The notes under the pieces were generated by a model. It was not told where the DNA came from, ran no database searches, and saw nothing but the letters and a program-made list of their open reading frames with translations. A stretch of DNA of 62,917 bases, the filler included, from Pirum gemmata (Eukaryota), in assembly GCA_002812295.1 (NCBI GenBank). It is 18 parts of 18 records of this genome, joined end to end, with 100 filler letters (N's around TTAATTAATTAA, not from the genome) between each part and the next. Parts side by side here need not be neighbours in the genome. Positions count along the whole stretch, not along the records: positions 30,921 to 34,183 come from PDIN01003051.1; 17 more parts are not named here. One strand, given 5' to 3'. Positions within the stretch are counted from its first letter, which is position 1. Each line of letters begins with the position of its first letter. This document shows positions 31,248 through 34,034 of the stretch, in pieces. The position numbers were made by a program, and so were the translations under genes.

Positions 31248-34034
31248 TTATGACCAAAGAGGATTCTGCCATCCCGATAGTTGCCAGTTGGAATCATCAA
31301 ATGCATTCCACAGGAAATCAAAAGGAATGGCATCAATAATTAGGTCGAAACCATTGAATATGTTATCGATCTCATCCGTCCAGGCATTATTACTTTGAGG
31401 ATTGCTATCAATTCTAGAATTATGTACACCAGAACTATTATTAGTTTCAGAATCAATTCCTAGGTTATGATCATCACTTGTCTCCAAAACAATTTCTTCC
31501 GTACGTGTGCATGGTGTTCCAGTATTATCACTATCACTACTAAACTTGAGTAATTTTACCGACCTTTCTTGAATCTCATCATCTTGTATATCATCAAAGC
31601 GATCACCGTGTCCACGTTTTAGAGGATTTGGCAAAACACAATCGGGCGAAGTGGTATTAGTAGTACTAGATTTACTAGGCATATATGAGTTGAAACCATT
31701 GGATAAGTTCTCGACCTCATCCGTCCAGGCATTATTACTTTGAGGATTGTCATCAATTCTAGAATGATGTACACCAGGACCATTATTAGTTTCAAAATCA
31801 CTTCCTAGTTCATGACTATCACTTGTCTCCGAAACAGTTTCTTCCGTACATGTCCATGGTGTTCCAGTATTATCACTATCGCTACTAAACTTGGGTAATT
31901 TTACCGGCCTTTCATGAATCTCACCATCTTGTATATCATCAAAACGATCACCGTGTCCACGTTTTAGAGGATTTGGTAAACCACAACCGGGCGAAGTGGT
32001 ATTAGTAGTACTAGATTTACTAGAAGAGGCGATGTTATTACTAGTAGTACTATTAATATTGATCATGCTTTTTTTGACATCCTTTTCAGTTTTAATCCTT
32101 TTCTTCTTTATTTTCTTGGGTCCCTGTTCTTCTGTTGCTATACAACCTGCAGATCTCTTCCTTCTTTTAAGATCAGAGTTGGTGCAACTTATTTCAGAAC
32201 TATTTACAGCTTCACTTCCATCCGATTTTTCCTCTCTATTATAACCATCCCTACTAACCTTGCGTGATTTTGCGGGCCTGTTGACGCTATCAAAACGGTC
32301 ACCGTTTCTGCGTTTTAGATTATTTGGCAAAACACTAGTGGTAGTAGTAGTAGTGGTAGTAGGAGAAGTAGATTTAAGATTCTCAGGTCTTGAAATGTGC
32401 AGCGTCGGATTAATTTGACAATGACAATGGTTCAAAAACTCCCCACGTCTCAACATAATCAAAGTAGTTACTGTATTCGCAGCTACTTCGTTTTCATCCA
32501 GGTCCTTTACCTTATGGTACCGATTGTTCTTCTTTTGTAGAGTATAAATTGGAGTAAATTTTAAATGGACAGAATAAAGAACGTCATCCTTCAGGTTTTC
32601 AAATTTAGTCCATATGTACTTCATAGCATTTTTGCTTCTGCACTCTAAAAATTCCAATCCAAAATTCGCAGCATTATCTTCTTTCCACATTTGTGCATTT
32701 AAAAAACTCATCTTTGCACCTTTTACCTCCAGTTTGTCCTTCTCATCGACTAAAGCTAATAGTTTACCAATTTCATTTACATTTGGTTTTTTAAACTTAG
32801 ACCCTGTAAGTCGCCGAGAAATCACAATGATGTCAGCGCCCATCCCATGCTCTCCTAAAGGAAACTCACGGGTTTCTCCATTTCCTGTTAAAAAACCGGT
32901 ACTATTTTCTTTTAAAATTAACGAAACTCTAAATCTTTGATAAGATTTCAGGTAAGCGAAGACCGGCGACTTTCCCTTTTGTTGTTCTTTTATTTTTGGT
33001 TTTGGTTCATTTGGTTTTGCATTTGGCTCTTCTTTTACCTTCGGTTCTGTTTTTGGCTCTGCTTTTGCTTTCGGTTTTGTTTTTGCCTCTTCGTTTTTTG
33101 GCTTTCTTTTGTTTTTTGCCTTTGGTTTTGTTGTTTTTGGTAACATTGTTGTTGTTGTTGTTGTTTGTGCTGGCTGCTGATTTTTTTCATTATTTTTATC
33201 CTTTTTAGCTTCTTGATCTCTTTCTTCATCCTCTTCATCTTCTTTTTCATAATAAAGATCTATATCCTCTTCTTCTAGGTCTTCTTCCTGTTCTTCCTCT
33301 ACTTTCTGCACTTCCTCTACTTTCTGTACTTCTTCTTGTTCCTGTTTACCTTTTTCAACTTCTTGTTCGGGTGGATTGAACTTTAGATAGGCACTGAATT
33401 TGCATGTAGTTACAAATTCACACTTTGGAAGATCAAACATAAGCGGAGGTCTCGTTGCTCCTGTAACATTGCCGATTTCAGTAACACAAACAGACACCTT
33501 ATATTTATAATTGGCTGCCAAAAACACAGCACCAGCGTCGGGCTTATAATTTTTTTGAGGAGTCTCTACATATGCTTTTACCGTTTGGTTATTTGTAAGT
33601 GTGGCTAATTTCTTTGTAGTTTTGAAATGAGTATCGTTAATAACGCCCCCTGGAAGAATCGCTATATGATCTCTAACAGTGGGAACATCGATTCCCATTG
33701 GTGTATCTTCAACATCCCAAATGATTTTTGAACTATCTACCCAAAAACGCCTTCTCAATTTTAAAAGTGGTGTGAATACATATTCCAAATGATAATATTT
33801 TTCGGGGCAAAGGTTAAAAACTTTAAAGTCTCTACAAGGTAAATTGTAGGCATTTGCTGCTTCTGCGATGTAGCCGCCGTAGTTGGGGGCTTTCGGTGGG
33901 TTAACGTTCATGACAAGTAGTCCATCCCATGCATTATCAGCAAAGGCTAGGTAAGGTTGATCTGGCGTTGTCGCAGACCCATTAAAGACAAGTTCAGAAT
34001 CTGAATTCCGTGAGCAAAATGGTATAAAAAACAT
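31248..34034 (-). CDS. Divergent double T-box-like transcription factor (928 aa, intronless here)
   Basis: aa ~27-216 follow T-box motif order: W; LP..DFKVFNLCPEKYYHLEYVFTP; LTNN; GAVFLAANYKYKVSVCV; MFDLPKCEFVTT. A second T-box-like region lies at aa ~356-549. Basic NLS clusters and an acidic-aromatic C-terminus. Confidence 0.75.
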   Translation of the reverse strand: MFFIPFCSRNSDSELVFNGSATTPDQPYLAFADNAWDGLLVMNVNPPKAPNYGGYIAEAANAYNLPCRDFKVFNLCPEKYYHLEYVFTPLLKLRRRFWVDSSKIIWDVEDTPMGIDVPTVRDHIAILPGGVINDTHFKTTKKLATLTNNQTVKAYVETPQKNYKPDAGAVFLAANYKYKVSVCVTEIGNVTGATRPPLMFDLPKCEFVTTCKFSAYLKFNPPEQEVEKGKQEQEEVQKVEEVQKVEEEQEEDLEEEDIDLYYEKEDEEDEERDQEAKKDKNNEKNQQPAQTTTTTTMLPKTTKPKAKNKRKPKNEEAKTKPKAKAEPKTEPKVKEEPNAKPNEPKPKIKEQQKGKSPVFAYLKSYQRFRVSLILKENSTGFLTGNGETREFPLGEHGMGADIIVISRRLTGSKFKKPNVNEIGKLLALVDEKDKLEVKGAKMSFLNAQMWKEDNAANFGLEFLECRSKNAMKYIWTKFENLKDDVLYSVHLKFTPIYTLQKKNNRYHKVKDLDENEVAANTVTTLIMLRRGEFLNHCHCQINPTLHISRPENLKSTSPTTTTTTTTSVLPNNLKRRNGDRFDSVNRPAKSRKVSRDGYNREEKSDGSEAVNSSEISCTNSDLKRRKRSAGCIATEEQGPKKIKKKRIKTEKDVKKSMININSTTSNNIASSSKSSTTNTTSPGCGLPNPLKRGHGDRFDDIQDGEIHERPVKLPKFSSDSDNTGTPWTCTEETVSETSDSHELGSDFETNNGPGVHHSRIDDNPQSNNAWTDEVENLSNGFNSYMPSKSSTTNTTSPDCVLPNPLKRGHGDRFDDIQDDEIQERSVKLLKFSSDSDNTGTPCTRTEEIVLETSDDHNLGIDSETNNSSGVHNSRIDSNPQSNNAWTDEIDNIFNGFDLIIDAIPFDFLWNAFDDSNWQLSGWQNPLWS

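What the first reader, a model, noticed from the sequence alone, without database searches (positions are those of the whole stretch)
32388..33956. Double T-box protein whose second T-box looks circularly permuted
Seen: aa ~27-216 of the 928-aa ORF carry T-box motifs in normal order. After a charged linker, aa ~356-407 (AYLKSYQRFRVSLIL...REFPL...DIIVIS) match the C-terminal half of a T-box (LNSMHKY.PRIHI / F.FPET.FIAVT). They come BEFORE aa ~441-549 (FLNAQMWKE...GLEFL...NLKDDVLYSVHLKFTPI...RY...RGEFL...LHIS), which match the N-terminal half (LE..LW..F..EM...GLDP..YSV.LDFVP..RY...G..WM..KLT). Established: T-box genes, including a double-T-box gene, occur in unicellular holozoans. Inference: tandem duplication plus trimming produced a permuted T-box, an architecture I do not know to be described. 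The usual DNA-contact motifs (GRRMFP, AYQN) are lost, so specificity may have changed.
Basis: partly seen in the sequence, partly recalled or inferred. Interest (0 to 1): 0.85.

Follow-up and report, generated by a model that had tools for sequence, protein, structure and literature searches.

The report
Likely circularly permuted T-box domain
An orphan 928-residue eukaryotic protein likely carries two very worn-down copies of the T-box DNA-binding domain, the second possibly built with its two halves in swapped order, which would be a layout I did not find described for this family of developmental regulators.

Summary
The 928-aa reading frame and the quoted motifs are real. It lies alone on a 3.3-kb contig of a stitched window, so it has no true neighbours. 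No standard search calls it a T-box (Pfam, PDB, HMMER, HHalign). Weaker tests do: a language-model search of aa 20-225 returns T-box clusters (0.84), and a home-built profile aligns that domain in normal order (3 of 200 shuffles as good). Aa 440-507 match the first part of a T-box. The swapped order is favoured but not shown. Domain 1 fits aa 350-556 best when cut at aa 145-169 (1-3 of 500 shuffles), but the gain over normal order is marginal (14, 37 and 150 of 500). AlphaFold, given only first-half homologues, drew aa 365-376 in as a strand and left the rival strand (aa 536-549) unfolded, yet the model is partial (pLDDT 51, best Z about 3). No relative was found among 1.8 billion cluster representatives. 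Both domains lack the minor-groove helix, so binding to the usual T-box site is unlikely. Verdict: probable divergent double T-box; circular permutation about even odds. The scan's notes showed no earlier such finding.

The parts
30921..34183 (.). The contig that holds the gene (3263 bases), bounded by artificial spacers; DNA beyond it is not a genomic neighbour
   Evidence: 44 N + 12 bases + 44 N spacers recur about every 3.3 kb through the window
31248..34034 (-). Uninterrupted ORF, 928 aa (P0001)
   Evidence: contig GC 0.35; run X1 identical over 32377-34037
33372..33956 (-). Domain 1 (aa 27-221): likely highly divergent T-box in normal order; lacks the RRMF motif and the last helix; about 13 extra residues in the loop after 'LTNN'
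   Evidence: Atlas T-box clusters 0.83-0.84; profile alignment, 3 of 200 shuffles; HHalign 125 columns, E 0.16
32970..33371 (-). Charged linker (aa 222-355): acidic part (net -21 over aa 222-285), Thr run, then Lys/Pro-rich part (net +13 over aa 296-355)
32745..32969 (-). Segment read as the T-box second half (aa 356-430): strand F at aa 362-376, possible strand G at aa 385-407, helix at aa 416-428
   Evidence: best ungapped match of aa 362-376 in the protein is domain-1 aa 172-186 and vice versa; strand with pLDDT >=50 without alignment rows; 118 of 2000 shuffles; strand G not placed by the model
32370..32723 (-). Segment read as the T-box first half (aa 438-555): strand A, W-helix, strands B and C, hairpin, strand C'; aa 533-555 ambiguous (strand E region, or strand F in the rival reading)
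   Evidence: model aligns to TBX5 residues 52-157 and 1053-1167, Z 3.1, rmsd 4.0, 91 and 100 aligned (alignment-driven)
32079..32180 (-). Basic patches (aa 619-652), nuclear-localisation-like
   Evidence: sequence; function inferred
31692..32024 (-). Tail repeat copy 1 (aa 671-781); a partial third copy begins near aa 553
   Evidence: 88 of 111 aa identical to copy 2; partial copy
31347..31679 (-). Tail repeat copy 2 (aa 786-896)
   Evidence: 3 synonymous and 26 non-synonymous differences from copy 1
31251..31394 (-). Acidic, hydrophobic C-terminal 48 aa (8 D/E, no K/R, 19 F/W/Y/L/I), activation-domain-like
   Evidence: function inferred from composition

Best explanation
The gene encodes an intact 928-aa protein that is likely a fast-evolving, T-box-derived nuclear regulator with a normal-order T-box (aa 27-221) and a second, probably circularly permuted one (aa 356-555). 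Inferred origin: head-to-tail copying inside the gene, then loss of the first half of one copy and the second half of the next, leaving strands F-G and a helix (aa 356-430) joined by about ten residues to strands A-E of the following copy (aa 438-555). The cut falls in the loop between the 'LTNN' strand and strand F, which already tolerates an insertion in domain 1. Inferred working: the two halves close into one immunoglobulin-like sandwich; the new join takes the place of the last helix, which in Brachyury enters the minor groove, so this domain would not read the usual T-box site. Domain 1 has lost that helix too. The protein would act through altered or weak DNA binding or through partner proteins, with basic patches for nuclear import and an acidic-aromatic tail as activation region. 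Shown: ORF, motifs, tail duplication, missing contact motifs. Inferred: T-box homology, order swap, joint folding, function.
For: Domain 1: Atlas top three rows all PF00907 T-box, 0.83-0.84, and 10 of the 10 best family-bearing hits agree (a lead by the tool's own calibration); profile score falls from 34.1 to 20.5 when the profile is cut mid-domain, as expected for normal order. Order in domain 2: domain 1 used as a profile and cut at every position fits aa 350-556 best at cuts aa 145-169, 27.5 against 22.5 bits uncut, 1 of 300 shuffles; same peak in 3 of 3 gap settings, 3, 2 and 1 of 500 shuffles, above the reversed sequence and above all 16 natural control segments. Ungapped best matches inside the protein: aa 171-185 to 361-375, aa 49-90 to 455-496, aa 120-136 to 522-538. 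Aa 362-376 and 172-186 share L..(x5)Y/F-K/R-V-S-x-x-x-x-E. AlphaFold with 43 first-half-only rows and none over aa 351-438 made aa 365-376 a strand at pLDDT >=50 and aa 536-556 no strand; sandwich folds, among them Grhl2, CP2 and p53 DNA-binding domains, align over model residues about 9-183, so that range includes this strand. The gene has duplicated internally in recent time (88 of 111 aa). Permutation by duplication is the accepted model (PMC2096629, passage). Minor-groove role of the last helix, F213/F217 and R69: PMC11828899, passages.
Against: No curated or standard search detects a T-box: Pfam, PDB sequences, hmmsearch --max full-sequence E 0.033 with no significant domain, HHalign E 0.12-0.49, Atlas blank for aa 350-555. 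Canonical-profile cut scan: 25.7 bits at the proposed cut against 24.7 uncut; its best cut (156) is a gappy, implausible alignment. Mixed profile: 14 of 400 shuffles, flat from cut 68 to 156, and it maps aa 359-384 to the end of strand G and the helices instead. Gain of permuted over normal order is reached by 37, 150 and 14 of 500 shuffles. In an all-against-all window null the strand-F match is ordinary (score 21, shuffle mean of maxima 24.7). The model is partial: mean pLDDT 51, strand G and aa 536-556 below 50 although the latter had alignment rows, no Foldseek hit, best Z 3.3; its first half was steered by the rows I supplied. No relative found, so conservation of the layout is untested. 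The tail repeats show no purifying selection (dN/dS 2.4 on 29 changes).
Confidence: 0.5

Rival explanations
1. Second T-box in normal order but shortened: aa 438-549 run from strand A to strand F (aa 533-549), having lost the middle helix, strand E and strand G; aa 356-430 is a separate remnant or unrelated sequence.
For: HMMER, HHalign and MAFFT all place the canonical strand-F motif on aa 533-549; the profile scores it 7.2 bits against 4.0 for aa 362-376 and ties it with domain 1's own strand F.
Against: Needs a deletion of about 25-30 residues and leaves two core strands missing (alignment); domain 1 aligns aa 120-143 to aa 522-545, i.e. to the first half; AlphaFold gave aa 536-556 no strand (though its rows favoured the other reading).
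Confidence: 0.17
2. Decaying tandem copies: the order second-half then first-half is real, as left by repeated duplication and trimming, but the two remnants do not fold into one domain and are drifting.
For: Partial model, strand G unplaced; no relatives; tail repeats without purifying selection; all matches at 10-25% identity.
Against: The remnants are almost exactly complementary and adjoin through a short join; aa 365-376 keeps strict alternation of hydrophobic residues; the frame is open over 928 codons in 35% GC DNA.
Confidence: 0.15
3. Other rearrangement: aa 359-412 derive from a different part of the T-box, either the end of strand G plus the DNA-contact helices (aa 359-384) or a second strand C to strand E stretch (aa 361-412).
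For: Aa 359-373 score 8.9 bits against the strand G/helix 3 columns and are so mapped; aa 394-412 is the best window of the protein for the helix 2/strand E block (9.0 bits, z 4.5).
Against: Aa 365-376 is modelled as strand, not helix; it lacks the 'F-x-P' end that both strand C copies keep and matches domain-1 strand F (21) far better than the strand C of domain 2 (6).
Confidence: 0.08
4. Aa 350-556 (or the whole protein) is not T-box-derived; the motifs are chance likenesses among beta-rich sequences.
For: All standard searches blank; several incompatible mappings score alike, as chance matches do.
Against: Independent weak signals agree: Atlas, profile order test, two copies of the strand B-C block standing 8 bits above the next window, 42-residue ungapped match between the two domains (31 against next 0).
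Confidence: 0.1

Closest known systems
T-box DNA-binding domain (Pfam PF00907; Brachyury PDB 1xbr/6f59, TBX5 2x6u/5flv)
   Same: Motif order and spacing of strands A-C, hairpin, C', 'LTNN', strand F and strand G in domain 1; first half in aa 440-507; C-terminal regulatory tail behind the domain, as described for the family (PMC11828899, passage).
   Different: Below every curated threshold; no RRMF motif, no AYQN, no last helix with the two phenylalanines in either domain; second domain probably in swapped order. Of the 120 listed T-box proteins (of 7876 found), 34 have more than one profile hit and none of these begins a unit with a lone second half placed ahead of a first half.
Proteins with two or more T-box domains (database entries P0002, P0003, P0004, P0006; the Capsaspora double-T-box gene is recalled, from no call)
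   Same: Two T-box units in one chain.
   Different: The database entries carry complete domains in normal order and some may be gene-model fusions; here the units are highly divergent and the second is rearranged.
Divergent nematode T-box factors (C. elegans TBX-33, TBX-39, TBX-40)
   Same: Lineage-specific, changed DNA-contact residues, new binding motifs; TBX-33 has an 18-aa insertion before strand e' (PMC4434323, passages).
   Different: Those remain recognisable T-box proteins in normal order and have measured motifs; nothing is measured here.
Natural circular permutation by duplication (DNA methyltransferases; PMC2096629, passage)
   Same: Proposed route: tandem copy, then trimming of the outer halves.
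   Different: There both ends are trimmed by new start and stop codons; here the permuted unit would sit inside a longer chain beside an unpermuted copy.

Membership tests
T-box (PF00907) | Reaches the Pfam T-box threshold | tested here: not met
   No T-box row at E<=10 for the whole protein or four parts
T-box (PF00907) | Remote sequence homology to T-box domains, domain 1 | tested here: inconclusive
   Favourable but below standard significance: Atlas 0.84; 3 of 200 shuffles; HHalign E 0.16
T-box (PF00907) | Remote sequence homology to T-box domains, aa 350-556 | tested here: inconclusive
   First half favourable; whole region 5 of 200 and 14 of 400 shuffles; Atlas blank
T-box (PF00907) | Immunoglobulin-like (p53-like) beta-sandwich fold | tested here: inconclusive
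   Single-sequence model failed (pLDDT 34); guided model of aa 350-556 partial, TBX5 at Z 3.1, rmsd 4.0, 91-100 aligned, tied with other sandwiches; domain 1 not folded with an alignment
T-box (PF00907) | Base-contacting arginine in the A-B loop (Brachyury R69, in the GRRMFP motif) | tested here: not met
   Aligned stretches are 'ANAYNLP' (domain 1) and 'RSKNAMK' (domain 2); a Lys or Arg lies near the position in domain 2; role of R69 from PMC11828899; the link of R69 to this motif is recalled
T-box (PF00907) | C-terminal helix with two phenylalanines that enters the minor groove (F213, F217) | tested here: not met
   Domain 1 ends 'AYLKFNPPEQE'; domain 2 has the join to strand A there; role from PMC11828899
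T-box (PF00907) | Binds the T-box element | not testable with these tools
   Needs SELEX, protein-binding microarray or gel shift
Circularly permuted domain | Best alignment to the parent domain has the halves in swapped order | tested here: inconclusive
   Peak at cut aa 145-169 against domain 1 in 3 of 3 settings, gain marginal; not reproduced with the canonical or mixed profile
Circularly permuted domain | The two halves fold into one complete domain | tested here: inconclusive
   One strand of the second half drawn in, strand G and the strand E region not
Circularly permuted domain | Layout kept in independent lineages | tested here: inconclusive
   No relative retrieved

The most novel reading that the evidence does not exclude
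A natural, folded, circularly permuted T-box domain, in which the join of the old ends replaces the minor-groove helix, paired in one chain with an unpermuted T-box: a family thought to keep one fold order and nearly one binding site has produced a rewired DNA-binding or scaffold module that current domain searches cannot see.
Probability: 0.45. Interest if true: 0.78.

Novelty: new variant of a known kind. Interest (0 to 1): 0.55.

Why it matters
T-box factors pattern animal embryos and their binding motif is described as nearly constant across animals, with nematode exceptions (PMC4434323, passages). A permuted T-box would show that this fold can be reopened and rejoined in nature, and that the rejoining removes its signature DNA contact. 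It would also mean that Pfam-based counts of transcription factors miss T-box-derived genes. I found no description of a permuted T-box in five literature searches, which cover open-licence papers only. Against weight: it is one orphan gene, and the swap is about even odds.

Tried and rejected
Pfam and NCBIfam scans: no T-box. PDB sequence searches with each domain and with the two-domain profile: nothing under E 0.3. Word-indexed protein searches: none for aa 20-560 among 7991 candidates of 510-1624 aa, none for domain 1 among 172 candidates; other length classes were not searched with this protein. Full HMMER search of 1.84 billion representatives with a two-row profile of both domains: 1 hit, P0122 (E 7.5e-6), rejected as a 17-residue likeness summed over 8 repeats with no T-box signal (165 of 200 shuffles as high); no canonical T-box was retrieved by that profile either. 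Viral contigs and phage genomes: nothing. Single-sequence AlphaFold of aa 20-560: pLDDT 34, not used. Foldseek on the guided model: no match at E<=0.001 and no T-box among the rows shown; the second look gave two unrelated sandwiches. The two-chain test of the halves was not available, so their association was not scored. No whole genome is held, so paralogues could not be sought. No RNA holder listed; parts without cover in run X2 are not read as evidence. Earlier scan notes: none on this place or sequence; four word matches concerned other permuted proteins and were not used. The best-scoring cut of the canonical scan (156) was rejected as a gappy chance alignment. Supplementary files were not read; gene lists in supplements on unicellular holozoan transcription factors could bear on the novelty claim.
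Full report
Setting. The window is not continuous DNA: spacers of 44 N, 12 bases and 44 N recur about every 3.3 kb, so it is a string of small contigs. The gene lies alone on the contig 30921-34183, with about 150 bases upstream of its ATG and about 330 downstream of its stop. No genome is held. The DNA is AT-rich and looks eukaryotic; my calls do not fix the lineage. T-box genes are reported in animals, Capsaspora, the ichthyosporean Creolimax and a fungus (PMC3626178 and PMC4739763, passages).

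The ORF. 31248-34034 on the minus strand gives 928 aa with no stop. Run X1 holds 32377-34037 in one contig without a difference; it may be the source of the assembly and is not independent. The layout is: globular region aa 27-221, charged linker aa 222-355, globular region aa 356-555, basic patches aa 619-652, two copies of a 111-aa repeat (88 identical; 3 synonymous and 26 non-synonymous changes) and an acidic, hydrophobic end.

Is domain 1 a T-box? Standard tools say nothing: Pfam, PDB sequences, HMMER with all filters off. The Atlas search by features returns T-box clusters in its top three rows at 0.83-0.84, a level that a third of shuffled proteins can reach for some family. To test further I collected real T-box domains: a motif scan of metagenomes gave 122 loci, an alignment of 9 pieces from them found 7876 proteins of which 120 were listed, and 115 domains were reduced to 30 non-redundant ones. 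HHalign aligns 125 columns of domain 1 in normal order but at E 0.16-0.17. My own profile aligner scores aa 66-221 at 34.1 bits over columns 32-178; 3 of 200 shuffles reach this when allowed their best cut, and the score drops to 20.5 when the profile is cut in the middle. The signals are weak but agree; I put T-box ancestry at about 0.85.

First half of domain 2. The strand B-C block of the profile finds two windows far above the rest, aa 474-496 and aa 68-90 (11.4 and 11.2 bits, next 3.2). Aa 49-90 and 455-496 align without a gap (score 31, next 0); domain-1 first half against aa 433-560 is matched by 37 of 2000 shuffles. MAFFT lays 34 T-box first-part pieces on aa 440-509 with three small gaps.

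Order. Four readings of aa 356-555 appeared. (a) Permuted: strand F at aa 362-376, G near 385-407, helix 416-428, then A to E in 438-555. (b) Normal order and shortened, strand F at aa 533-549; HMMER, HHalign and MAFFT choose this and the profile scores it 7.2 against 4.0 bits. (c) Aa 361-412 as a second strand C to E stretch. (d) Aa 359-384 as the end of strand G plus helices. With canonical T-boxes the cut scan does not decide: 25.7 bits at the proposed cut, 24.7 uncut; the mixed profile is flat over cuts 68-156, 14 of 400 shuffles. With domain 1, the nearest available relative, the scan peaks at cuts aa 145-169, the loop after 'LTNN', at 27.5 against 22.5 bits, 1 of 300 shuffles. The peak stays there in 3 of 3 gap settings (3, 2 and 1 of 500 shuffles; above the reversed sequence and all 16 natural control segments), but the gain over normal order is reached by 37, 150 and 14 of 500 shuffles. 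Aa 362-376 and aa 172-186 are each other's best ungapped match in the protein, yet in an all-against-all null such a score is ordinary, and the second half alone is matched by 118 of 2000 shuffles. Reading (a) is the only one that supplies each core strand once.

Structure. A single-sequence model failed (pLDDT 34). For the second job I gave aa 350-556 with 43 rows covering only the T-box first half, one of them domain 1 aa 26-149, and none over aa 351-438. The model has mean pLDDT 51, with 61 residues at 70-90; aa 365-376 form a strand at pLDDT 50 or more without any rows, while aa 378-437 and aa 536-556 stay below 50. Foldseek finds nothing. VIA-align gives only Z 3.3 or less: TBX5 aligns to model residues 89-189 and 90-199 through its residues 52-157 and 1053-1167 (Z 3.1, rmsd 4.0, 91 and 100 aligned), which by recalled TBX5 numbering ends before strand F; other sandwiches, among them Grhl2, CP2 and p53, span about 9-183 and so include the unaided strand in their range. 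This fits (a) and not (b), but the rows favoured (a) for aa 510-556, strand G was not placed, and such Z values may mean only a common arrangement.

Relatives. None: word-indexed searches, viral contigs, phages, and a full HMMER search of 1.84 billion representatives, whose single hit was a repeat-inflated 17-residue likeness. Of the 120 listed T-box proteins, 34 have several profile hits; the full repeats are in normal order and the partial ones re-enter part-way after a first-half or whole unit.

How it would work. In Brachyury the domain contacts DNA through the A-B and c-c' loops and two helices after strand G; the last helix puts F213 and F217 into the minor groove and R69 bonds a guanine (PMC11828899, passages). 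Neither domain here has the RRMF motif or the last helix. In reading (a) the place of that helix is taken by the join to strand A, so the swap itself would remove the signature contact. I infer a nuclear regulator that no longer reads the usual site and acts by altered or weak DNA binding or through partners, with an acidic-aromatic activation tail. Divergent nematode T-box factors show that new motifs can arise in this family (PMC4434323, passages). The recent tail duplication shows that this gene copies parts of itself, the first step of permutation by duplication (PMC2096629, passage); with domain 1 intact, three units or a later fusion are needed.

A side observation. One contig of run X2 (kind not on record; depth 4.2; 48 letters on the short side) skips 206 bases. 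Read on the plus strand the skip is 32595-32800, begins GT, ends AG and has a CTAAT about 40 bases before its end. That suits an intron of an antisense transcript over the join between the two halves; a DNA deletion would cut the protein at 414 aa. A second laying did not settle the kind of run.

Literature seen. Passages only: PMC11828899, PMC4434323, PMC2096629, PMC3626178, PMC4739763, PMC11286789, PMC7147346, PMC10256749, PMC4943189. The 2011 and 2013 papers on unicellular T-box genes were not held; the double-T-box gene of Capsaspora is recalled. Searches for a permuted or double T-box listed nothing on it by title or abstract start.

Verdict. Observation partly confirmed. Divergent double T-box likely; permuted second domain 0.5; folded and functional permuted domain 0.45. 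New variant of a known kind; interest 0.55, 0.78 if the permutation is shown.

Noticed in passing
window 32595-32800 (+): One contig of run X2 skips 206 bases with GT..AG ends on the plus strand and a branch-point-like CTAAT about 40 bases before the end: possibly a spliced antisense transcript across the join of the two halves; no long plus-strand frame crosses the joint.
   Followed up: partly
whole window: The window is a string of contigs of about 3.3 kb joined by artificial spacers (44 N, TTAATTAATTAA, 44 N); frames that cross spacers or N runs (e.g. 45379-47814, 50350-52014) are unreliable at those places.
   Followed up: yes
window 31347-32024 (-): Recent 333-base tandem duplication in the tail with 26 non-synonymous and 3 synonymous differences (dN/dS 2.4, few changes); each copy ends in an acidic-aromatic motif.
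   Followed up: partly
window 15564-16190 (-): 208-aa ORF with two EsV-1-7 cysteine-rich motifs (Pfam PF19114, E 3.6e-16).
   Followed up: no
window 50350-52014 (+): ORF with two dermatopontin matches (PF14704, E 3.9e-14), an extracellular-matrix-type domain.
   Followed up: no
window 45379-47814 (-) and 47879-48439 (-): NAD-dependent epimerase/dehydratase ORF with a long C-terminal extension, and a RING-finger ORF beside it on the same contig.
   Followed up: no
window 29573-30211 (+): Frame made of G-Y-N-rich short repeats (GYNKD, GYNQH), open in several frames.
   Followed up: no
P0122: Unnamed 1044-aa database protein made of eight near-identical units of about 131 aa with no true Pfam family.
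   Followed up: partly
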